Below, piece by piece: positions 31,258 to 39,865 of a DNA stretch of 64,000 nt. Position numbers and translations under genes: made by a program. The notes under the pieces are model-generated. The model saw only the letters and a program-made list of their open reading frames with translations, was not told where the DNA came from and made no database searches. This DNA is from Patescibacteria group bacterium. Lineage in GTDB: Bacteria; Patescibacteriota; Patescibacteriia; Patescibacteriales; UBA12465. Every line of letters begins with the position of its first letter. The first letter of the stretch is position 1. The DNA lies in contig JAVEZP010000003.1 of assembly GCA_034002925.1 (NCBI GenBank), forward strand, positions 11,712-75,711. The letters run 5' to 3'.

Positions 31258-33001
31258 GCCAATATTCTTCTTTGTCAGCTATTCTTCTATTAATCTCTTC
31301 TAACTCTTGATTTTTCTGCGGGTTATATTCCTTGTAGTGTTCTAAAAAATAGTTCAGTAATTCTTGTTTATAAATTTGCATTTTTTCCAATTCTTTCTCT
31401 AGGGATTGGATTTTTTTCTGTCTTTGTTTATTTTCTAGATAACGTTCTTTAGATATTTTTTTCTCAATACTAGGAGTAATTTTGTTTTCCAGTTGTTCTT
31501 TTTGCTGAATTTTAAGATGACGTTCTAAGTGTTTGATATAATCAGCGTAATCTTCATGTTTAGGTTTAGCTTTGCCATTATCTATTTCTAAAATAGTAGT
31601 TGCAATCTTCTGAGAAAAAGAACGATCATGACTAGCAAAAAGAACACTCCCTTCATAGCTTTTTAAAGCTTTTGCTAGAGCTTCACTAGTTTCAAAATCA
31701 AGATGACAAGTTACTTCATCAAGTAATAAAACATCTGGTTTAGAAAGTAGAATGGCGGCTAGAAGTAGTCTTGACTTTTCTCCTCCTGAGAGAACGCTAA
31801 TGACTTTTTTAAGTTCTTCATCTTTAAAGAGAAAATCACCCGCCATTTTTAAAACTGCTTCGGTTTTAATTTCGGGTGAAGCAAGGCGACGAAGATAGTC
31901 TCCAGCTTGTTCTAGGGGGTTTAATTTTTCCATTTCTTCTTGACTGTGAAGGGCAATACGACTGTCACTTGACCAATGATATGAGCCAGAGAGGGGAGGG
32001 AGATTAGCACTTAAAGTTTTAAGCAAGGTGCTTTTGCCTTGGCCATTTAAACCTAAAATAGCTAGTTTTTCTCCGGCTTTAAGATCTAGATTAATATCCT
32101 CTACCACGCTTTTATCTTGATAGCCAATACTAAGATTAGTGCTTTTTAAAACAAAATTATTTTTTTTCACTACTTTTGGAATGTTAATCCTTTGTAGTCC
32201 GGCTTCATTTTCAATCTTTATCCGTTTTTCTTCTAGTTTGCTGATTTTTCTCATCATAGCCTGAGCTTGTTTAGCCTTGGAAGCTTTAGAACGAAAACGG
32301 TTGATAAAATCTTGCCAATGTTCTTGTTGTCTTTCTAAGCTTTCATTGGCTTTAATCATAGTGGCTAGTTTTTGAGCCTTGAAGCTCAAATAAGCTTCAA
32401 TAGGCCCAGGATAGTGATAGCAGCCGGTTTTAGATATTTCGATAGTTTCTTTGCAGCTTTTTTTTAGAAATTCTCGGTCATGAGAGATAATTAAGAAACT
32501 ACCGTTATATGAGCGTAAATAGTTTTCTAAAAGTAAGACGGTGTTTAAATCAAGATAGTTACTGGGCTCGTCTAGTAGAAAGAGATTGGGTTCTTGAAGG
32601 AGCATACCGCTTAGTTTAAGACGCATGCGCCAACCACCAGACAGGCTATCGGCTTTTTGTTCTAATTTATCTGCTCTTAATTCAAATTTACTCGCCACTT
32701 GTCGTGCTCTCCATTCTGCTTGACCACTTAATCTTTCTAAATATTGTAAAGCGCTTTCTTCTTTATTCCAGTCATCATGTTGTTTTAAATAGCCAATTTT
32801 AGCATTGTCGTGAATGATAATCTGACCCTCATCAGCTTGTTCTGTTTGAGTGATGATGCGAAATAGAGTTGATTTACCAGCGCCATTGCGACCAATAATA
32901 CCAATTTTCTGTTTATCGCTAACAGCAAAAGAAAGATTACTAAAGATTTTTTCTCCGCCATATTCTTTTCCTAGCTTTTGTACTTGCAAGAGAATGGGCA
33001 T
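31223..33001 (-). CDS. ABC-F family ATPase (two ABC cassettes, no TM domain)
   Basis: Two Walker A sites (GRNGAGKST, GLNGQGKST), two LSGG signatures and a C-terminal coiled coil. 35-nt convergent overlap with the SpoU gene. Confidence 0.85.
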   Translation of the reverse strand: MPILLQVQKLGKEYGGEKIFSNLSFAVSDKQKIGIIGRNGAGKSTLFRIITQTEQADEGQIIIHDNAKIGYLKQHDDWNKEESALQYLERLSGQAEWRARQVASKFELRADKLEQKADSLSGGWRMRLKLSGMLLQEPNLFLLDEPSNYLDLNTVLLLENYLRSYNGSFLIISHDREFLKKSCKETIEISKTGCYHYPGPIEAYLSFKAQKLATMIKANESLERQQEHWQDFINRFRSKASKAKQAQAMMRKISKLEEKRIKIENEAGLQRINIPKVVKKNNFVLKSTNLSIGYQDKSVVEDINLDLKAGEKLAILGLNGQGKSTLLKTLSANLPPLSGSYHWSSDSRIALHSQEEMEKLNPLEQAGDYLRRLASPEIKTEAVLKMAGDFLFKDEELKKVISVLSGGEKSRLLLAAILLSKPDVLLLDEVTCHLDFETSEALAKALKSYEGSVLFASHDRSFSQKIATTILEIDNGKAKPKHEDYADYIKHLERHLKIQQKEQLENKITPSIEKKISKERYLENKQRQKKIQSLEKELEKMQIYKQELLNYFLEHYKEYNPQKNQELEEINRRIADKEEYWLTLQSEAEANR

Positions 33002-33002
33002 A

Positions 33003-33491
33003 TTAATTACTGATTGCTAATATCTGATAGTTTTTGCCGTTAATTGAGACTATCTCGCCTACGCTTTTACCTAATAGGGCAGAGCCAAGGGGGGAGAGAT
33101 GAGAAATTATACCTTGACTAGGATTACTTTCGCTCCCACCTAAGATTGTATAATTTTTGTGACCACTAGCACTTTTCAGACTGACAGTATGGCCAATTTG
33201 AACGACTGAGATGTCTTCGTCACCAATAATTATTTCCGCTTTACGGAGACGATCAGTGATTTCAAGAATGCGTTGATTTAAGCCACGCAAACGTCCTTTG
33301 GCCAATTGATAGCCGGCATTTTCTGAGAAATCTCCCATTTCTGCCAATCTTTTGACTTCTTTAGCTAAGCTTGGTCTTTTAGCGGTGAGACGAACAATTT
33401 CAGCTTCAAGCTCCCGATATTTACTCGGGCTGAGATAGTAGTCTTTAGGGGCGAAGACACGGCTGTCGCCTTTTCTAATGGGTACACGCAT
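33003..33491 (-). CDS. greA: Transcription elongation factor GreA
   Basis: GDFSENAGYQLAKGRLRGLNQRILEI coiled-coil tip plus C-terminal globular domain (ISHLSPLGSALLGK). Confidence 0.9.
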   Translation of the reverse strand: MRVPIRKGDSRVFAPKDYYLSPSKYRELEAEIVRLTAKRPSLAKEVKRLAEMGDFSENAGYQLAKGRLRGLNQRILEITDRLRKAEIIIGDEDISVVQIGHTVSLKSASGHKNYTILGGSESNPSQGIISHLSPLGSALLGKSVGEIVSINGKNYQILAISN

Positions 33492-33641
33492 ATGTGAATG
33501 ATTATGTGTTTATCATAGAGGAATAGGGGTTTAAAGGCAAGGATTTGGCGGATAATATTGGTTTACAAAGTCGTTTAAAAAGAGTAAAATTAAGCCATAG
33601 AATAAAAATTTATCTTTTCGTTATACTCAATTTGCTATAAT

Positions 33642-34508
33642 ATGACTAAGCCAAAAAAAACCACAAAAACTAAGAAAAAAAGCAAAAAAATGTTAAATCC
33701 ATTTTTTACAGACAAAGACTTTAAATTATATCAAGCTAATAGTTTGGAATTTTTGGCTACTTTAGAAGAGAATTCGGTTGATATGATTTTTGCTGATCCG
33801 CCCTATATGTTGTCTAATGGTGGTTTTTCAGTGCATGCTGGGAAAATGGTTAGTGTTAATAAGGGAGAATGGGATGTTAGCAATGGCCTTAAAAAAGACT
33901 TTGAATTTCAATTAGCGTGGATTCAGGCTTGTCACAGAGTGTTAAAACCTGGTGGCACAATTTGGATTTCTGGAACCTATCATTCTATTTATCAATGTGG
34001 CTTTGCTCTTCAGGTAAGCAAGTTTCATATTTTAAACGATATTGCATGGTTTAAACCCAATGCTTCTCCTAATCTAAGTTGTCGCTTTTTTACAGCTAGT
34101 CACGAAACTCTCATTTGGGCAAGAAAAGAATTAGTGCATCCTAAAACAGGTAAAAAGATTAATACTAAACATAAGTTTAATTATGATTTAATGAAAAATG
34201 GTCATTGGCCAGAGGACTTTTTGAAAAAACCTAATTTACAGATGCGTAGTGTGTGGTCAATGGGTACACCTAAGCCAGCAGAGAAAAAACACGGTAAACA
34301 CCCGACTCAAAAACCAATAGATTTATTAGTTCGTATTGTAATAGCTAGTACTAATAAGGGTGATTTAGTTATTGATCCATTCACTGGATCCTCCACAACT
34401 GGCTTAGCTTGTGTTTTAAATGATAGAAAATTCATTGGCATCGATTTGGAGAAGAAATATTTGGAGTTGTCTGTTAAGAGATATAAGGATTTATTAGGCA
34501 ATAAATAA
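33642..34508 (+). CDS. Beta-class N6-adenine DNA methyltransferase, DpnA (M2.DpnII)-like
   Basis: DMIFADPPYMLSNGG (motif IV) precedes DPFTGSSTTG (motif I). NLSCRFFT, ETLIWARK and GKHPTQKP blocks align with my recollection of DpnA. A TATAAT hexamer abuts the 33642 ATG, so ATG 33690 (MLNPFF) may be the real start. Confidence 0.85.
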   Translation: MTKPKKTTKTKKKSKKMLNPFFTDKDFKLYQANSLEFLATLEENSVDMIFADPPYMLSNGGFSVHAGKMVSVNKGEWDVSNGLKKDFEFQLAWIQACHRVLKPGGTIWISGTYHSIYQCGFALQVSKFHILNDIAWFKPNASPNLSCRFFTASHETLIWARKELVHPKTGKKINTKHKFNYDLMKNGHWPEDFLKKPNLQMRSVWSMGTPKPAEKKHGKHPTQKPIDLLVRIVIASTNKGDLVIDPFTGSSTTGLACVLNDRKFIGIDLEKKYLELSVKRYKDLLGNK

Positions 34509-34516
34509 ATATAATC

Positions 34517-36187
34517 TTGAATTTTATGAATAATGACATATATGCTGGTTCATATCTATATTCTTCAATTATAGATAAAGTTTCAGCAAAACATTTAATA
34601 CCAACGTTACAGCGGCCTTATGTCTGGACGGATAAAAAACAGGTGAAAAAATTTATTGAAGACATTTTAACTAGCAATGATTATTATTTTATTGGTAGTT
34701 TGGTTTTTGTTTTGTCGTCGAACGGGACCGTTGGAAGGGATGAGATTATAGATGGGCAACAGCGGATGATAACCATATCTTTAATTTTGATAGCAATAAG
34801 AGATCTAATTATAAAGCATAAAAAGGAGAAAAAATTAAACGATGCCTTGCGTGAAATTAGTGGTTTTTTAGAATTTGTAGATTCATATGATTTAAAAAAG
34901 AGCCCAAGAATAGAATTTTATGACAAAAGAACAAATAGTTTTTATATAAAATTATTAAAAGGAGAAGCCGGATCTCCTGAAACAGAAACACAAAAAAGAA
35001 TTTTAGATAATTATAATTATATTTATAAAGAGTTAGCTAAAAAGTGTGGCAAAAATATTGATGTAGAGATCACGAGTTTTTTGAACAAGATAAAAACGCT
35101 TAAGGTTATTGCTATAAGTTGTACAAATAATTCAATAGCATATGAATTGTTTGAGAGTATAAACGCTACCGGAATGTCATTGGCTAGCGTTGATTTAATT
35201 AAAAATTTTCTTTTTAAAAATGCATCAAAAGATAAGTCTTTACTATCTAAAGTTGAAACAAATTGGCAAAAATTAGAGGATATATTTTCAGACAATAGAG
35301 CACTTTTCAAAACATTTTTAAGACATCACTGGATAAGCAATGGCTATTATATTAGTCATTCTGGTTTATATTCTGATGTTGAAGTAAAACATAAAGAAAA
35401 AAAAATCACTTCGGTAAGCTATTCTGAGGAATTAGCACATGATGCAGTTACTTATGTGTCGTTGAGGACTGCCAATGCCGAGTCTTTAAGCAAGATACAA
35501 AAATGGAAAAGATTTGATGCAAAATCCGTTAAAGAGGTTCTTGAATTTCTTTCCTTTTTGAGCGTAGATCAGGTTTATGCCCCAATTTTATTTTTTTATA
35601 AAAATGAAAGCAAAGATAAGTTTAAAAAAATGCTTAATAGATTAGCAGCTTTTCAATTTTTGTATAAGTATATTGCAGGAAGCCCAAGTTCTGCGGAGAA
35701 AATATTTGCTGGCTTTGCTAAAAATAACAAGGATGTTAATACACTATTTCAAGAATTGCACAATTTAGTAAAGAACGGTCACGACGAGTTCGTAGAAAAT
35801 TTTTCAAAAAAAAGCATTTACAAAGTATCTAAAAGTGGAGATGTGCAGTTTGTTCTAGAGAGATATGTTTTTTCTAAGGGCGGGGCTCGATCATTCAAAG
35901 AGCCCACTATAGAGCATATAATAAGTCAATGTGATAAAGATGATGATTATGTCCATGAAATTGGTAATCTTACTATTTTTGAACTTAGTGAGAATTCTAA
36001 ATTGCCGACAAAATTTAAAGATAAAATTAGTATTTATAAAAAAAGTCCATATAAAGAGCATCAATTAATTTTAAAATATGATTTTGATAAAAATTATAAA
36101 AAATCTATCAAAAGAAGAACTGAAGATATAGCATCAGATGTTTATGATATTTTTGTTAATATTTTAAAGACCGGTAAAATTATATGA
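34517..36187 (+). CDS. DUF262/DUF1524 (GmrSD-like) putative modification-dependent nuclease
   Basis: N-terminal DUF262 (IPTLQRPYVWTDKKQVKKFIEDI, IIDGQQR). C-terminal DUF1524 His-Me finger-like (TIEHIISQ...IGNLTIFELSENSK). Possible ATG start at 26 nt further in, 34526. Confidence 0.8.
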   Translation: MNFMNNDIYAGSYLYSSIIDKVSAKHLIPTLQRPYVWTDKKQVKKFIEDILTSNDYYFIGSLVFVLSSNGTVGRDEIIDGQQRMITISLILIAIRDLIIKHKKEKKLNDALREISGFLEFVDSYDLKKSPRIEFYDKRTNSFYIKLLKGEAGSPETETQKRILDNYNYIYKELAKKCGKNIDVEITSFLNKIKTLKVIAISCTNNSIAYELFESINATGMSLASVDLIKNFLFKNASKDKSLLSKVETNWQKLEDIFSDNRALFKTFLRHHWISNGYYISHSGLYSDVEVKHKEKKITSVSYSEELAHDAVTYVSLRTANAESLSKIQKWKRFDAKSVKEVLEFLSFLSVDQVYAPILFFYKNESKDKFKKMLNRLAAFQFLYKYIAGSPSSAEKIFAGFAKNNKDVNTLFQELHNLVKNGHDEFVENFSKKSIYKVSKSGDVQFVLERYVFSKGGARSFKEPTIEHIISQCDKDDDYVHEIGNLTIFELSENSKLPTKFKDKISIYKKSPYKEHQLILKYDFDKNYKKSIKRRTEDIASDVYDIFVNILKTGKII

Positions 36188-37101
36188 AATTTCTAAATTT
36201 TTACAAAAAAAAACTAAGTTGTCAAAATGAAGACGAAGTTTTTAATTATTTAATTAATAACTTAAAGCCAAGTATTATTCTTTGGTCTTATTTTGTTAAT
36301 TGGGATAAGGTTTTTAATAATACCAAAAAGATAGAAATAGCTTTAAATAATCTTAATTATTTAATTGGAAAAGAAGATTTTGATAGTGAATTCAGATTTT
36401 TAATTAAGGAAAATCCAGAAATTGCTAAAGTTATTCCTGCGTTGGTTGTGCGTGATGGAAGTAATACTAATAAATTTAATATTTTAGTTGATTATAAAGG
36501 TAAGAAACTAGTTTATGAAGAATACGATTTTTCTAAAAAAGAGATGACAGATGAGGACGTGGAAAAGTATCTTATGTTTGTAAAAGAGTCAGGATTAAAA
36601 GATTTAATTATCTCACAAAAAATCAAAAACCTTGTTGATTATATGATTGGCGTAGAGGCTGGGCTTGATAGTAATGGTAGAAAAAATAGAGGTGGCCATT
36701 CTATGGAGAGTATAATAGAATTTTTTATTAAAGATGTTTGTGAGAGTAAAAAATATAGCTATATTAAAGAAGCAACCTCAGAGAAAATAAATAAAGAATG
36801 GGGCTATGACGTTCCAGTGGACAAGTCTTCTCGCAGATATGATTTTGTTGTTAACACTGGCAAAGAACTTGTTATTTTTGAAACTAATTTTTATGGTGGT
36901 AGTGGCTCTAAGTTAAAGTCAACTGCTGGAGAATATAGAGACCTTTTTAATGTCTTAAAAGGTCAATATAAGTTTATTTGGATTACAGATGGTAATGGCT
37001 GGAAGTCTACAGCCCGGCCCCTTAGGGAAACCTTTAATCACAATGACTATGTGATTAGTTTAGAGATGGTTGAAAAGGGTATTTTAAATGAAATCTTTTA
37101 A
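36184..37101 (+). CDS. DpnII-family type II restriction endonuclease (predicted GATC)
   Basis: NLVDYMIGVEAGLDSNGRKNRGGHSMESI, RYDFVV, ETNFYGGSGSKLKSTAGEY, WITDGNGW and LRETF match the DpnII/MboI family blocks as I recall them. Start overlaps the previous stop (ATGA). Confidence 0.8.
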   Translation: MKFLNFYKKKLSCQNEDEVFNYLINNLKPSIILWSYFVNWDKVFNNTKKIEIALNNLNYLIGKEDFDSEFRFLIKENPEIAKVIPALVVRDGSNTNKFNILVDYKGKKLVYEEYDFSKKEMTDEDVEKYLMFVKESGLKDLIISQKIKNLVDYMIGVEAGLDSNGRKNRGGHSMESIIEFFIKDVCESKKYSYIKEATSEKINKEWGYDVPVDKSSRRYDFVVNTGKELVIFETNFYGGSGSKLKSTAGEYRDLFNVLKGQYKFIWITDGNGWKSTARPLRETFNHNDYVISLEMVEKGILNEIF

Positions 37102-37165
37102 TTAAAGATATAAAAATCATTAAGCTTGTTGAGATGAATTTAAAAACCGTTGATGTGCCACAAGG

Positions 37166-37963
37166 ATGTATAAAGTGTTTTATTATATGAACATTTTTAA
37201 AAAAGAAAAATCATATTCTAAACAAAAGATTAAAATTAATCTTATAAAACAGTGGATTTTTTATATTTTTGCCTTCTTGCTTATTGTTGTTTACCTCTCT
37301 TATTCTATTAATAAATATAGACATTTAGATCGAGATACGCTTAGGGTTTTTGCTTTACTAACATTAGGCTTTCTTTCTGGTATATTGTCTTTGTGGTTTT
37401 TAAAGTTAATTAATAATTTCTTTTCAAAAACTGATACTGAGATAAATAAGGCTAGGAAGGGAAACGAAGGAGAAAAATTAACCTATCTTAATTTAGTTAA
37501 ATTTCTGGGTAATAATTATAAAATTTATAAAAATTTTAAAATACCTAATCGTAAATTTGATATAGATTTTTTAATAGTTGGCCCTAAGGGATTAATAGTG
37601 ATAGAAGTAAAAAATAGTTCAAATTCCTATATTTTTACAGAAAAAGAAGCTAGGAGAATAAAGGGAGAAGGATATTCTAGGAAAACTACTCTTTTGTTTG
37701 GTAATTGCGATCCTCGTGTAAAGCTAATAAATCATTGCAAATCTTTAAATCATTATTTATATTCCTTGGGTTTAGTTGGTTTTAGGATTAAAAAGGCTTT
37801 GTTGTTTATTAATGGGAATATAAGCATTAATGATAAATCCGGTGTATATATTATTAATGGAATAAGCAAATTGCGTGAGTATATAGAAGGACTAAATTAT
37901 GACGATAGATTCACTGCAGAATTTTGTGAGACTGTTAATAGGAGCTTAATTGATAAAATATAA
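37166..37963 (+). CDS. NERD (nuclease-related domain) protein with two N-terminal TM helices
   Basis: GNEGEKLTYLNLVKFLG...KFDIDFLIVGPKGLIVIEVKN fits the NERD core (GxxGE...D-x-hhh...G-hhhhE-x-K). Preceded by two hydrophobic helices. Confidence 0.65.
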   Translation: MYKVFYYMNIFKKEKSYSKQKIKINLIKQWIFYIFAFLLIVVYLSYSINKYRHLDRDTLRVFALLTLGFLSGILSLWFLKLINNFFSKTDTEINKARKGNEGEKLTYLNLVKFLGNNYKIYKNFKIPNRKFDIDFLIVGPKGLIVIEVKNSSNSYIFTEKEARRIKGEGYSRKTTLLFGNCDPRVKLINHCKSLNHYLYSLGLVGFRIKKALLFINGNISINDKSGVYIINGISKLREYIEGLNYDDRFTAEFCETVNRSLIDKI

Positions 37964-38083
37964 ATCATGCCAAATTTGACCTCTTTTATATTTTATGTTA
38001 TATTAATTACAGATAAGAAATCTATTCTTCTCCATTATTAATAACGTTAAAAGTGACTGGCTTTTTTCCAGTTGCTTATTTTT

Positions 38084-39865
38084 ATGTCAAAGAACGAAAA
38101 AAATGTTCCTGCTGAGAAAATTGTCAGTTTCACAGAATTAGGAATTAAAGAAACTATTTTAAAAATTATCTCCGGTTTAGGTTTAAGCACTCCCACCCCT
38201 ATTCAACTACAAGCTATTCCAGCGGCTTTAAGTGGCCAAGATATTGTAGGCATCGCTCAAACTGGTACTGGCAAAACCTTTGCTTTTGGTATTCCCATGC
38301 TGCAGCAATTAGCTCTCAATAAGGGTAGGGGTTTAGTGGTTTTACCCACTAGAGAATTGGCTTCTCAAGTAGAAAAGAGTTTGCACAGTCTAGGTGGTCC
38401 TTTGGGATTACGTACCGCTCTTTTAATTGGCGGTGAGCCAGTATATCGACAATTACCAGCCCTAAGACGCCATCCTCATATCGTAGTTGGCACCCCAGGC
38501 CGTTTAATTGATCTCTTAAAGAGTGGTAATTTAAAACTAGATACCGTCTCAGTGTTAGTATTTGATGAGGCTGACATGATGTTTGATATGGGTTTTGCTC
38601 CTCAAATTGAAGAAATTATGAAGAGCGTCCCTAAAGAAAGACAAACTCTGCTTTTTTCCGCCACCATGCCTTTAGCCGTGATGAAATTAGCAGAAAAAAA
38701 TTTAAAAACTCCAGTCAGGGTGGAAGTAGCTCCAGCTGGAACAACCGCTGCTTTAGTGGATCAAGAATTATATATCATGAGCCGAGAAGAGCGTTGGCAT
38801 CAGTTGTTAGAATTACTTAAAGAATATCAGAACTCTGTCTTAGTGTTTGTTAGAACTAAACATGGTGCTTCTAAGTTGAGTAAAAAATTAAAAGAAAATA
38901 AATATCAAGCCGCTGAAATTCACTCGAATCTTTCTTTTCCCCAAAGACAGGCCTCTTTAAGCGGTTTTAAAAGCGGTAAGCATCGTATTTTAGTAGCCAC
39001 GGATGTGGCGGCCAGAGGTTTAGATATTAATGATATTGAATTAGTTTTAAATTATGACTTACCTGATAATTCTGAAGATTATGTTCATCGCATTGGTCGA
39101 ACAGCTAGAGCCGGTAAAAAGGGTAAGGCTATTTCTTTTGCCACCCCTCAACAAGGAAGAGAAGTAAAGAGAATTGAACAGCTAATTCGAAAAAATTTAC
39201 CTAGTAAAAGAATTAACAGCTCTCATCCTGAAGCAGTTAGTTTTGTGTCTAATAATTTTGATCGCAGTGGCAGACCACAAATAATTCCGCGTCAAAGAGC
39301 TGATAGGGCAGTCATGCCGAGAAAAAAAGAGGGAACAAGGGCTAGGATTGAAAAAAGAGAGGAGTTTCAAGAAAACCTTAAACATACTAGTTTAGGTTTT
39401 AAAAAAAGAGCTAGTCAAATTGATCCTACCGCTACGCCTGATTATCTGCAGCCGCGTTCATCTCGGGGGGTTTCAGCTCAATATCAGTCAAGAAATAAAC
39501 ATACAGATAATCGTCAAAGAACTAAAACAACTAAATTTAATCATCAATCAGAGGAGGAAGAATTTGTGCCTTTAATGCATAATCCTAGTTTTGATGGTGG
39601 TAACCGTTTTGCCTTTCGTCGTAATTTATATCAATTAAAAGAAGCAGCTAAAGGTAGATCAAGACGTCCTTTTAAGAAAAGAGAGACTCAAGACAGGCCG
39701 ACTGATAAAGATGTAAAGAGAGACAGACCAGCTGCTCGAGCTGACTTTAAAACTGGTGTCAGAAGTTCTGGTTCAAAGGTTTTTAAACCTAAAGAAAAGG
39801 GCGGTGATGATAGTCGTAGCTTTAGGGCTAAATCTTTTACCCCTCGCTATAAAAGAAAAAAATAA
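38084..39865 (+). CDS. DEAD-box ATP-dependent RNA helicase with a basic C-terminal extension of about 200 aa
   Basis: Q motif, AQTGTGKT, PTRELA, DEAD, SAT, VATDVAARGLDI, HRIGRTARAG. Arg/Lys-rich tail. Confidence 0.9.
   Translation: MSKNEKNVPAEKIVSFTELGIKETILKIISGLGLSTPTPIQLQAIPAALSGQDIVGIAQTGTGKTFAFGIPMLQQLALNKGRGLVVLPTRELASQVEKSLHSLGGPLGLRTALLIGGEPVYRQLPALRRHPHIVVGTPGRLIDLLKSGNLKLDTVSVLVFDEADMMFDMGFAPQIEEIMKSVPKERQTLLFSATMPLAVMKLAEKNLKTPVRVEVAPAGTTAALVDQELYIMSREERWHQLLELLKEYQNSVLVFVRTKHGASKLSKKLKENKYQAAEIHSNLSFPQRQASLSGFKSGKHRILVATDVAARGLDINDIELVLNYDLPDNSEDYVHRIGRTARAGKKGKAISFATPQQGREVKRIEQLIRKNLPSKRINSSHPEAVSFVSNNFDRSGRPQIIPRQRADRAVMPRKKEGTRARIEKREEFQENLKHTSLGFKKRASQIDPTATPDYLQPRSSRGVSAQYQSRNKHTDNRQRTKTTKFNHQSEEEEFVPLMHNPSFDGGNRFAFRRNLYQLKEAAKGRSRRPFKKRETQDRPTDKDVKRDRPAARADFKTGVRSSGSKVFKPKEKGGDDSRSFRAKSFTPRYKRKK

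What the first reader, a model, noticed from the sequence alone, without database searches (positions are those of the whole stretch)
34517..37101. GmrSD-like gene sits where dpnM is expected and is ATGA-coupled to the endonuclease
As I recall it, the classical pneumococcal DpnII cassette runs dpnM-dpnA-dpnB. Here only a DpnA-type (beta-class, DPPY...FxGxG order) methyltransferase is present. A 556-aa DUF262/DUF1524 protein is wedged between M and R. Its stop overlaps the REase start (ATGA at 36184-36187), which implies translational coupling. So a putative modified-DNA nuclease and an unmodified-GATC nuclease would be made in fixed stoichiometry. This could be a two-pronged trap for phages that evade DpnII by base modification. 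Alternatively the DUF262/DUF1524 protein may act as a specificity or control partner.
Basis: partly seen in the sequence, partly recalled or inferred. Interest (0 to 1): 0.62.

Follow-up and report, generated by a model that had tools for sequence, protein, structure and literature searches.

The report
GmrSD-like nuclease built into GATC restriction cassettes
A three-gene mobile defence cassette (GATC methylase, a GmrSD-like NTPase/HNH nuclease, a DpnII-type restriction enzyme) is really there, and relatives of the middle gene sit inside GATC restriction-modification cassettes in every context I could examine, which suggests a tie to GATC methylation and not chance clustering.

Summary
Window 33642-37101 encodes, on one strand, a DpnA-type beta-class methyltransferase, a DUF262/DUF1524 (GmrSD_N + GmrSD_C) protein and a DpnII-family endonuclease. 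The ATGA stop/start overlap is at 36184-36187.

The trio is a mobile unit. One colinear 3.5-kb block (81% nt identity) recurs in another Patescibacteria contig with unrelated flanks, and dN/dS is 0.02-0.07 for all three genes.

All 12 relatives whose contigs I looked up (27-88% identity) also sit in the same operon as a methylase. An endonuclease is there too wherever the contig allows (11 of 12). The partner families keep swapping: Dam-type or DpnA-type methylase; DpnII, MutH/Sau3AI-like or a third PD-(D/E)xK endonuclease. Among 158 more distant GmrSD loci, only one has such a neighbourhood. I found no paper describing this.

The middle protein is closest to HEC-06 (autonomous, blocks T4 infection) and DndI (a mark-sensing second restriction module). 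It is not close to BrxU.

Best reading (0.45): an autonomous Type IV-like second nuclease co-expressed with the Type II system.
Main rival (0.3): a DndI-like effector that reads G6mATC as the self mark.

"Fixed stoichiometry" and "sits where dpnM is expected" are over-statements. Verdict: a new variant of a known kind; moderate to high interest.

The parts
33576..37089 (+). Mobile three-gene cassette, defined as the block shared with locus L001
   Evidence: A single colinear blastn block, 81.4% nt identity over 3520 nt with L001 7045-10564. The flanks are unrelated: greA / NERD + DEAD helicase here, RT / 150-aa ORF + Mrr there. GC falls to 0.24-0.31 over about 34300-38000, against 0.35-0.39 in the flanks.
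33562..33590 (+). Promoter-like site upstream of the methylase (weak candidate)
   Evidence: TTTACA-17-TAAAAT, 10 of 12 matches. The scan as a whole is not enriched over shuffles in this AT-rich DNA (32 found against 26 expected). It lies at the start of the conserved block.
33642..34508 (+). DpnA-type (beta-class) N6-adenine methyltransferase, presumed GATC-specific
   Evidence: PF01555, 182 bits. PADLOC MTase_II 2e-90. 47% identity over the full length to M.LlaDCHIB of pSRQ700. DPPY at aa 52 precedes PFTGS at aa 246. dN/dS 0.024 against L001.
34526..36187 (+). GmrSD-like DUF262 (ParB-like NTPase) + DUF1524 (His-Me/HNH nuclease) protein, 553 aa. The alternative TTG start at 34517 gives 556 aa.
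   Evidence: PF03235 2e-34 and PF07510 1e-11. PADLOC HEC-06 8e-63 and Orf5 (=DndI) 3e-48, both full length. DGQQR at 34751-34765 and EH at 35912-35917 are invariant in 31 homologues. AF2 model pLDDT 87.9; best PDB fold match is DndI 9jfl, TM 0.61-0.65. dN/dS 0.051.
36184..36187 (+). ATGA stop/start overlap between the GmrSD-like gene and the endonuclease gene
   Evidence: Read directly from the sequence. Conserved in L001. Other clade members have junctions of -1, +1, +2, +4, 14, 28, 48 and 133 nt.
36184..37101 (+). DpnII-family Type II restriction endonuclease
   Evidence: PF04556 1.5e-90, covering 2-278 of 278 profile positions. PADLOC REase_II 1e-87. 37-41% identity to plasmid DpnII/LlaDCHI-type enzymes. 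dN/dS 0.074.
37166..37963 (+). Membrane-anchored NERD-domain protein: a neighbour in the same low-GC island, not part of the conserved cassette
   Evidence: PF08378 2e-14. Homology with L001 stops at 37089. The only terminator-like hairpin in 33300-38200 is at 38051-38077, after this gene.

Best explanation
The window carries a horizontally mobile, single-operon defence cassette of three genes: a DpnA-type methylase (presumed to make G6mATC), a GmrSD-like NTPase/HNH nuclease, and a DpnII-type endonuclease.

**Proposed mechanism.**
- The methylase, first in the operon, marks host GATC sites.
- The DpnII enzyme cuts unmethylated GATC in incoming DNA.
- The GmrSD-like protein belongs to the HEC-06/DndI branch of the DUF262-DUF1524 superfamily. 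I propose that it acts as an autonomous, NTP-dependent Type IV-like nuclease that tolerates G6mATC and attacks DNA the Type II enzyme cannot cut, such as hypermodified phage DNA.
- It is co-transcribed with its partners, and in this lineage translationally linked to the endonuclease.

**Why the clade stays in GATC cassettes.** Relatives of the nuclease were found inside GATC cassettes in every context examined. Under this reading that is because half-cassette replacements by recombination are viable only between systems of the same specificity, and the conserved middle gene provides the homology.

**Shown here:** gene identities, motifs, operon packing, mobility, purifying selection, and the clade-wide association with GATC-type methylase and endonuclease genes.
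**Inferred:** GATC specificity, nuclease activity, substrate preference and autonomy.
For: - **Domains and motifs** are intact.
- **Best model match** is PADLOC HEC-06 (8e-63, residues 23-545). HEC-06 alone protects E. coli and needs its DGQQR and EH residues (bioRxiv 10.1101/2024.01.29.577857). HEC-06 is reported to block T4, and a HEC-06 homologue defends against modified T-even phages but not the unmodified T4-GT7 (bioRxiv 10.1101/2025.02.28.640651).
- **Precedents** for GmrSD-like genes embedded in modification-based systems: Type I RloF (PMC4619093), BREX-BrxU, and Hma.
- **Mobile unit under selection**.
- **Conserved embedding.** Same strand, with the methylase upstream of the nuclease genes, in all 12 looked-up homologues at 27-88% identity. 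Only L044, from the genome scan, has G upstream of the methylases. Among 158 more distant GmrSD loci 1 has such a neighbourhood. A Fisher test on an earlier count, 13 of 13 clade contexts against 2 of 80 loci of the genome scan, gave p 4e-14.
- **No co-clustering** of the GmrSD tree with M or R family, as expected if it acts on DNA independently of its protein partners.
- **Recombination scar** in L092: a 79-aa remnant of a window-type DpnII N-terminus sits directly after the GmrSD gene, followed by another DpnII allele.
- **GATC** is the most under-represented 4-mer palindrome in the window (119 observed, 178.5 expected).
Against: - An autonomous Type IV enzyme would be expected to turn up in other contexts too, as BrxU and HEC-06 do (Hma, Type I, BREX, stand-alone). 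None of 14 non-redundant clade contexts lacks a GATC-type methylase.
- The closest solved structures are DndI and SspE, both sensors of a host modification and not attackers of modified DNA. BrxU is not detected by either the fold search or the profile search.
- PADLOC's Type IV model matches only the N-terminal about 70 residues (3e-10).
- There is no biochemical evidence for any member of this clade.
- GATC specificity is inferred from family membership and context only.
Confidence: 0.45

Rival explanations
1. **Methyl-mark-sensing second restriction effector (DndI/SspE-like).** The GmrSD-like protein scans DNA and reads G6mATC, made by the cassette's methylase, as the self tag. The mark stimulates its NTPase and releases or restrains it. 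DNA without the mark is nicked or cut, including phage DNA that has purged its GATC sites and so escapes the Type II enzyme. One methylase would then serve two restriction modules, exactly as DndBCDE serves both DndFGH and DndI.
For: - Closest solved relatives: DndI (profile E 6e-27; Foldseek E 1e-14, TM 0.61-0.65 over the full length), then SspE.
- Eighteen PADLOC 'Orf5' models match, down to 3e-48. Orf5 is DndI (PMC4198939).
- DndI is co-transcribed with the other restriction module, uses the same modification, and is toxic without it (PMC11662687).
- This reading directly explains why the clade is tied to GATC methylation whatever the methylase fold (D12 or N6_N4) or endonuclease fold (DpnII, MutH-like, R3).
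- It also explains why the methylase gene lies upstream of both nuclease genes in every clade cassette (only L044, outside the clade, has G first).
Against: - The best HMM match is HEC-06, which works without its native methylase and belongs to a family with in vivo evidence of modification dependence.
- DndI's PT-sensing Tyr25 aligns with an invariant Leu in this clade, so any sensing would need a different chemistry.
- No DUF262 protein is known to read N6-methyladenine.
- No M + GmrSD pair without an endonuclease was seen. Only L089, cut by its contig end, is undetermined.
Confidence: 0.3
2. **Subunit, specificity factor or controller of the Type II enzyme.** The GmrSD-like protein forms a complex with the DpnII-type endonuclease or the methylase. 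It is made in fixed ratio through translational coupling and modulates their activity or timing. A variant is a DndB-like regulator.
For: - The ATGA overlap here and in L001. Six of ten G-to-R junctions lie within 4 nt even with different R families.
- A 1.7-kb gene placed between M and R could delay or lower endonuclease expression on entry into a new host (inference only).
- DndB, a DUF262 relative, is a regulator (PMC3632139).
Against: - Partner families are non-homologous and interleave on the GmrSD tree.
- Gene order also varies: M-R-G in L004, L093 and L007; G-M-M-R in L044.
- Junctions of 14-133 nt occur.
- Both catalytic motifs are invariant, which a pure regulator would not need.
- Classical DpnII cassettes work without any such gene.
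Confidence: 0.1
3. **Selfish hitch-hiker.** The nuclease gene is lodged inside an addictive R-M module and is kept because it cannot easily be lost without breaking the cassette. It has no functional relation to GATC restriction and perhaps little defence role.
For: - R-M cassettes are mobile and addictive (general knowledge; PMC2993543, listed but not read).
- The cassette moves as a unit.
- Embedding in defence loci is common.
Against: - dN/dS is 0.051 with synonymous sites near saturation.
- Catalytic motifs are invariant across 27-100% identity.
- The gene is retained through many partner swaps and order changes. This shows selection on the protein itself.
Confidence: 0.08

Closest known systems
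HEC-06 (Hma-embedded candidate 06; GmrSD-like defence protein, Payne et al. bioRxiv 2024)
   Same: - Best model match: E 8e-63 across residues 23-545.
- Same DUF262 - helical linker - DUF1524 architecture.
- Same DGQQR and EH catalytic motifs, which were shown to be essential in HEC-06.
- Also a single gene embedded in a DNA-modification-based defence locus.
   Different: - HEC-06 was defined inside Hma and Type I loci and is common outside them. Every clade context examined here is a Type II GATC cassette.
- Only an HMM match was available, so identity to the tested HEC-06 protein is unknown.
DndI (Orf5) of the IscS-DndBCDE-DndI / DndFGH phosphorothioate system
   Same: - Closest solved structure and sequence.
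- Same logic of one modification module plus two co-transcribed restriction modules, one being a DUF262-DUF1524 NTPase/nickase.
   Different: - No dnd or ssp genes lie nearby. The modification partner here is a methyltransferase.
- The PT-sensing Tyr25 is an invariant Leu in this clade.
- Only 20-21% identity.
BREX-embedded BrxU and classical GmrSD Type IV enzymes
   Same: - The concept of a modification-dependent nuclease embedded in a system that targets unmodified DNA, giving complementary cover (PMC8565348).
- The same two Pfam domains.
   Different: - BrxU is absent from the PADLOC, PDB-sequence and PDB-fold hits.
- The PADLOC Type IV model matches only the N-terminal stretch.
DpnII / LlaDCHI / MboI-type GATC restriction-modification cassettes
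   Same: - DpnII-family endonuclease.
- DpnA-type methylase, 47% identical to M.LlaDCHIB.
- Tight single-strand operon.
- GATC is depleted in the host DNA.
   Different: - Six plasmid cassettes inspected have Dam-[DpnA]-R with no DUF262 gene.
- Here the Dam-type gene is missing and a 1.7-kb nuclease gene separates M from R.
RloF (DUF262 gene between hsdS and hsdR of Type I loci)
   Same: A GmrSD-like gene wedged between the modification and restriction genes of an R-M locus (PMC4619093). One clade member is even annotated 'RloF' (P0056).
   Different: The host system is Type I, not Type II, and no fixed recognition sequence is shared among the host systems.

Membership tests
GmrSD superfamily (DUF262 + DUF1524) | N-terminal DUF262/GmrSD_N and C-terminal DUF1524/GmrSD_C domains above Pfam thresholds | tested here: met
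   PF03235 scores 119.7 bits (cut-off 33.2) and PF07510 scores 44.9 bits (cut-off 23).
GmrSD superfamily (DUF262 + DUF1524) | DGQQR NTPase motif and EH...N His-Me nuclease motif | tested here: met
   DGQQR at aa 76-80, EH at 463-464 and GN at 480-481, in 553-aa numbering. All are invariant in 31 homologues.
GmrSD superfamily (DUF262 + DUF1524) | NTP-stimulated cleavage of modified (hmC / glc-hmC) DNA | not testable with these tools
   Needs purified protein or phage assays.
HEC-06 | Full-length match to the PADLOC HEC-06 models | tested here: met
   Three models match at 8e-63, 5e-59 and 2e-58, each covering about residues 20-545.
HEC-06 | Embedded in Hma or Type I loci, and also found free-standing | tested here: not met
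   All 14 non-redundant clade contexts are Type II GATC-type cassettes.
DndI / SspE (phosphorothioate-sensing effectors) | Overall fold and domain order | tested here: met
   Foldseek gives 9jfl E 1e-14 with TM 0.61-0.65, and 7drr E 1e-10.
DndI / SspE (phosphorothioate-sensing effectors) | Linked to dndBCDE or sspABCD modification genes | tested here: not met
   No such Pfam families appear in any neighbourhood table. In the window the flanks are suf, trmH-like, ABC-F, greA and a DEAD helicase by my reading of the translations, not an HMM search.
DndI / SspE (phosphorothioate-sensing effectors) | PT-sensing aromatic residue (DndI Tyr25) | tested here: not met
   It aligns with an invariant Leu of the PxLQRP motif.
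BrxU | Detectable sequence or fold similarity beyond the shared Pfam domains | tested here: not met
   No BrxU model is among the 25 PADLOC hits. 7P9K is absent from the PDB profile hits (E<=0.01) and from the 50 best of 57 Foldseek matches at E<=10.
DpnII-type GATC R-M system | DpnII-family endonuclease | tested here: met
   PF04556 1.5e-90, full profile coverage.
DpnII-type GATC R-M system | DpnA-type beta-class methylase | tested here: met
   47% identity to M.LlaDCHIB. Motif order IV then I.
DpnII-type GATC R-M system | Dam/DpnM-type alpha-class methylase as the first gene | tested here: not met
   No D12-class ORF in the whole window. It is present in other clade cassettes: L003, L092, L095, L096, L104 and L106.
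DpnII-type GATC R-M system | Recognition of GATC, with protection by N6-methyladenine | tested here: inconclusive
   Indirect evidence only. All partner families are GATC-associated families. GATC is the most depleted 4-mer palindrome (O/E 0.67, z -4.5). There are no methylome or cleavage data.

The most novel reading that the evidence does not exclude
This clade of DUF262-DUF1524 proteins is a methylation-sensing restriction effector. It is the N6-methyladenine counterpart of the phosphorothioate sensors DndI and SspE, and it uses G6mATC laid down by any GATC methylase as the self mark. It would restrict unmarked DNA even when that DNA has no GATC sites for the Type II enzyme to cut. That would make the cassette a 'one methylase, two restriction modules' system. 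It would also be the first case of a scanning, mark-released nuclease attached to an ordinary Type II R-M system.
Probability: 0.3. Interest if true: 0.8.

Novelty: new variant of a known kind. Interest (0 to 1): 0.57.

Why it matters
GmrSD-like genes are known to be embedded in Type I, BREX, Hma, Dnd and Ssp loci. I found no report of them as a regular component of Type II cassettes. The published 'guilt-by-embedding' survey covered only Hma, BREX, DISARM and Type I.

Here a whole clade, from 27% to 100% identity and mostly from candidate-phyla-radiation (CPR) bacteria, keeps its place inside GATC cassettes while the methylase and endonuclease folds are exchanged around it. That pattern either reveals how iso-specific R-M cassettes reshuffle around a conserved anchor gene, or points to a nuclease that reads adenine methylation as a self mark.

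Both readings are directly testable. E. coli is naturally Dam+, so expressing the gene in dam+ and dam- hosts would separate them. CPR bacteria have tiny genomes and few known defences, so a compact three-gene, two-nuclease cassette also matters for understanding their phage resistance.

Tried and rejected
1. **Genome-contig scan with the clade alignment.** Only loci at 28% identity or less came back. I reused these as a background set, not as clade members.
2. **Metagenome-contig scan with the single protein.** It found only the same organism (L087) and L001 again.
3. **Viral-contig scans.** These returned only distant GmrSD genes. The best group (about 220 bits) turned out to be cargo in a P2-like prophage hotspot (Dam - gpA ... 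GmrSD - portal/terminase), not R-M cassettes. The weak D12 hits there are phage Dam genes several kb away, and I rejected them as evidence of association.
4. **Promoter and terminator scan.** Uninformative in this AT-rich DNA (32 promoter-like sites against 26 expected).
5. **Repeat search for insertion scars.** Only low-complexity AT-rich matches. A 15-nt direct repeat at 33000 and 38000 brackets greA as well as the island, and I treat it as chance.
6. **PDB sequence searches for the DpnII enzyme and the third endonuclease family.** No solved relatives.
7. **AlphaFold-Multimer of the GmrSD-like protein with the endonuclease.**
8. **Census of DpnII neighbourhoods.** Limited to six plasmid records.
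Full report
**1. What is there**

Four genes lie head to tail on the + strand:
- 33642-34508: a 288-aa N6_N4 methyltransferase.
- 34517/34526-36187: a 556/553-aa protein with GmrSD_N (PF03235, 2e-34) and GmrSD_C (PF07510, 1e-11).
- 36184-37101: a 305-aa DpnII-family endonuclease (PF04556, 1.5e-90).
- 37166-37963: a membrane-anchored NERD protein.

The gap between M and the middle gene ('G') is 8-17 nt. G and R overlap by ATGA at 36184-36187. The only terminator-like hairpin is at 38051-38077. GC drops to 0.24-0.31 over about 34300-38000, against 0.35-0.39 in the flanks. By the names of the closest homologues the organism is a Patescibacteria (CPR) bacterium.

The methylase has DPPY before the PFTGS motif. 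It is 47% identical over its whole length to M.LlaDCHIB, the DpnA-type enzyme of the GATC system of pSRQ700. No Dam-type (D12) methylase is encoded anywhere in the 64-kb window.

- The probable start of G is ATG 34526.
- G lies between the DpnA-type methylase and the endonuclease, not in the dpnM position.
- An ATGA overlap is an ordinary operon feature.

**2. It is a mobile unit under selection**

A second Patescibacteria contig (L001, 206 kb) carries the same three genes in the same order with the same overlap. DNA similarity is one colinear block, window 33576-37089, at 81% identity. It starts 66 nt upstream of the methylase and ends at the end of the endonuclease gene.

The flanks are unrelated. 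Here they are greA upstream and the NERD gene plus a DEAD-box helicase downstream. In L001 they are a reverse transcriptase upstream and a 150-aa ORF, Mrr and a 749-aa ORF downstream.

dN/dS is 0.024 (M), 0.051 (G) and 0.074 (R), with synonymous sites near saturation. All three proteins are being maintained.

**3. The arrangement is a property of the whole clade**

I looked up the contigs of 12 homologues of G, chosen by identity band and contig length, not by context. Every one sits in the same-strand operon as a methylase, and as an endonuclease wherever the contig allows (with my own HMMs).

| Identity to window G | Gene order |
|---|---|
| 88% | N6_N4 - G - DpnII |
| 65% | N6_N4 - G - contig end |
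| 54% | D12 - G - MutH-family - HTH - x - N6_N4 |
| 54% | N6_N4 - R3 - G |
| 52% | N6_N4 - G - MutH-family |
| 49% | HTH - D12 - G - DpnII remnant - DpnII |
| 42% | D12 - G - R3 - N6_N4 |
| 42% | D12 - G - DpnII - N6_N4 - Mrr |
| 41% | N6_N4 - MutH-family - G |
| 38% | D12 - G - DpnII - N6_N4 |
| 32% | D12 - G - R3 - HTH - x - N6_N4 |
| 27% | N6_N4 - three small ORFs - G - DpnII |

'R3' is a third endonuclease family. It has no Pfam model, matches PADLOC REase_II PDLC03457 at 2e-30, and has a YDPD...EVK motif.

Dam-type and DpnA-type methylases, DpnII and MutH/Sau3AI-type nucleases are all families associated with GATC. This rests on established knowledge of those families. R3 is assigned by its context between Dam-type and DpnA-type methylases in L106.

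Every locus I hold whose G scores at least 230 bits on the clade profile (14 non-redundant contexts, including L007 from the genome scan) has such a cassette. Below that score only L044 of 158 loci does. L044 is a Bacillota MAG with G - D12 - N6_N4 - DpnII. A Fisher test on an earlier count, 13 of 13 clade contexts against 2 of 80 loci of the genome scan, gave p = 4e-14.

Conversely, six plasmid-borne DpnII cassettes from cultured bacteria have no DUF262 gene.

On a rough NJ tree of G, partner families and gene orders are interleaved. Partners have therefore been exchanged many times, and G does not co-evolve with a particular M or R protein. L092 preserves a scar of such an exchange. A 79-aa remnant of a window-type DpnII N-terminus sits immediately after G, followed by a different DpnII allele.

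G-to-R junctions are -4, -4, -1, +1, +2 and +4 nt in six cassettes and 14-133 nt in four. Tight coupling is frequent but not universal.

**4. What kind of GmrSD-like protein it is**

- DGQQR and the EH...GN...N His-Me motif are invariant across 31 homologues.
- The best PADLOC models are HEC-06 (8e-63), then 18 'Orf5' models (down to 3e-48). SspE and the Type IV model match only weakly or partially, and BrxU not at all.
- 'Orf5' is the old name of DndI (PMC4198939).
- An AlphaFold2 model (pLDDT 87.9) matches DndI best (9jfl, E 1e-14, TM 0.61-0.65 over the full length), then SspE. A profile search of PDB sequences gives the same order.

From the papers:
- HEC-06 alone protects E. coli and needs its DGQQR and EH residues.
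- HEC-06 is reported to block T4. A HEC-06 homologue defends against modified T-even phages but not the unmodified T4-GT7.
- DndI is a second restriction module, co-transcribed with DndFGH. It uses the phosphorothioate mark as self: the mark stimulates its ATPase and releases it from DNA. It is toxic without the mark.
- DndI's sensing residue Tyr25 aligns with an invariant Leu in this clade.

**5. Mechanism**

Shown here:
- A co-inherited operon of M, G and R in which the methylase lies upstream of both nuclease genes.
- Intact catalytic motifs.
- Purifying selection.
- A clade-wide tie to GATC-type systems.

Inferred, best reading (0.45): G is an autonomous, NTP-dependent, Type IV-like nuclease. 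It tolerates G6mATC and covers phages whose modified DNA resists the Type II enzyme. The restriction to GATC cassettes would arise because recombination within the conserved G gene can swap only half-cassettes of identical specificity without killing the host.

Main rival (0.3): G is a DndI-like effector that reads G6mATC as the self mark. This explains most simply why the association follows the methylation specificity across unrelated methylase and endonuclease folds. It would also give a defence against GATC-free phages. It lacks any precedent for methyl sensing by DUF262, and it runs against the autonomy shown for HEC-06.

Other rivals:
- A subunit or controller role (0.1) is disfavoured by the partner swapping, the variable gene order and the invariant catalytic motifs.
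- A pure hitch-hiker (0.08) is disfavoured by the strong purifying selection.

**6. Supporting and limiting points**

Supporting: GATC is the most under-represented 4-mer palindrome in the window (119 observed against 178.5 expected, z -4.5). This fits GATC restriction pressure but is modest.

The core clade is small. About nine 50%-identity clusters score above 560 bits, out of 27,067 family representatives, with a continuum below.

Limits:
- Only 12 context look-ups were possible.
- The NJ tree is rough.
- GATC specificity is inferred.
- No complex prediction could be run.

**7. Novelty**

Known:
- GmrSD-like genes embedded in Type I (RloF), BREX (BrxU) and Hma/Type I (HEC-05/06) loci.
- GmrSD-like genes coupled to Dnd and Ssp modification.

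Full-text searches for DUF262 or GmrSD together with DpnII, GATC or Dam found nothing about Type II GATC cassettes. The embedding survey covered only Hma, BREX, DISARM and Type I.

I therefore rate this a new variant of a known kind.

Noticed in passing
window 37166-37963 (+): A 265-aa protein with N-terminal hydrophobic segments and a NERD nuclease-related domain (PF08378, 2e-14). It follows the cassette inside the same low-GC island but lies outside the block shared with L001. NERD proteins occur in other defence candidates such as HEC-02. This may be a separate defence gene.
   Followed up: partly
L092 7698-7937 and 7948-8388: A 79-aa ORF sits directly after the GmrSD gene. It is a remnant of a window-type DpnII N-terminus and is followed by a second, different DpnII allele that is cut by the contig end. 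It looks like a recombination scar from an endonuclease replacement.
   Followed up: yes
L004 7371-7979; L095 7679-8296; L106 4562-5146: A third endonuclease family ('R3', 194-205 aa, 68-73% identical to each other). It has no Pfam model and no solved relative, but matches PADLOC REase_II PDLC03457 (2e-30) and has a YDPD...EVK PD-(D/E)xK motif. It occupies the endonuclease slot of GATC-type cassettes.
   Followed up: partly
L003 5583-6338; L095 8298-9056; L096 8558-9310; L104 7677-8429: In Dam-type cassettes the gene after the endonuclease is a 250-aa N6_N4 methylase of a different subfamily. Its GGGTT (motif I) comes before HPPY (motif IV), the reverse of the DpnA order. It shares only about 40% identity over 58 residues with M.LlaDCHIB. 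Its target base and site are unknown.
   Followed up: partly
L003 5043-5252 and L106 5181-5393: Conserved 69-70-aa helix-turn-helix proteins (weak HTH_26 match) follow the endonuclease in two cassettes, and a 48-aa HTH_3 protein precedes the methylase in L092 (4874-5020). They are possibly C-protein-like controllers. The window cassette has none.
   Followed up: no
L110-L128 (IMG/VR contigs), e.g. L128 427-9566: More distant GmrSD-like genes (about 220 bits on the clade profile) sit between the gpA replication gene and the portal/terminase genes of P2-like prophages. A phage Dam methylase lies upstream of gpA. This looks like cargo in a prophage defence hotspot, not an R-M cassette.
   Followed up: partly
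L001 5592-6989 and 10581-14193: In the sister locus the cassette is flanked by a 465-aa reverse transcriptase (RVT_1) upstream, and by a 150-aa ORF, an Mrr-type Type IV enzyme and a 749-aa protein with no family match downstream. This looks like a denser defence island. L096 also has Mrr right after its cassette.
   Followed up: no
L109 4445-4998: Three small ORFs (81, 64 and 53 aa) separate the methylase from the GmrSD gene. The middle one carries a ParB-like 'DRQHR' motif, so it may be the debris of another DUF262-type gene.
   Followed up: no
window 33634-33692: The methylase ORF begins with a lysine-rich 16-residue extension (MTKPKKTTKTKKKSKK) ahead of the Met that aligns with the start of M.LlaDCHIB. 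The extension is conserved in L001. A perfect TATAAT lies 2 nt upstream of the first ATG, so the true start and the transcript 5' end are uncertain.
   Followed up: no
window 33000-33014 and 38000-38014: A 15-nt direct repeat (ATATTAATTAC[T/A]GAT, 14 of 15 identical) lies exactly 5000 nt apart and brackets greA, the cassette and the NERD gene. It is probably chance in AT-rich DNA.
   Followed up: no
L044 4247-8789: A Bacillota MAG has a distant GmrSD-like gene (25% identity) immediately upstream of a complete Dam-type - DpnA-type - DpnII cassette. This is the only such case among 158 distant loci. It may be an independent origin of the same association.
   Followed up: partly
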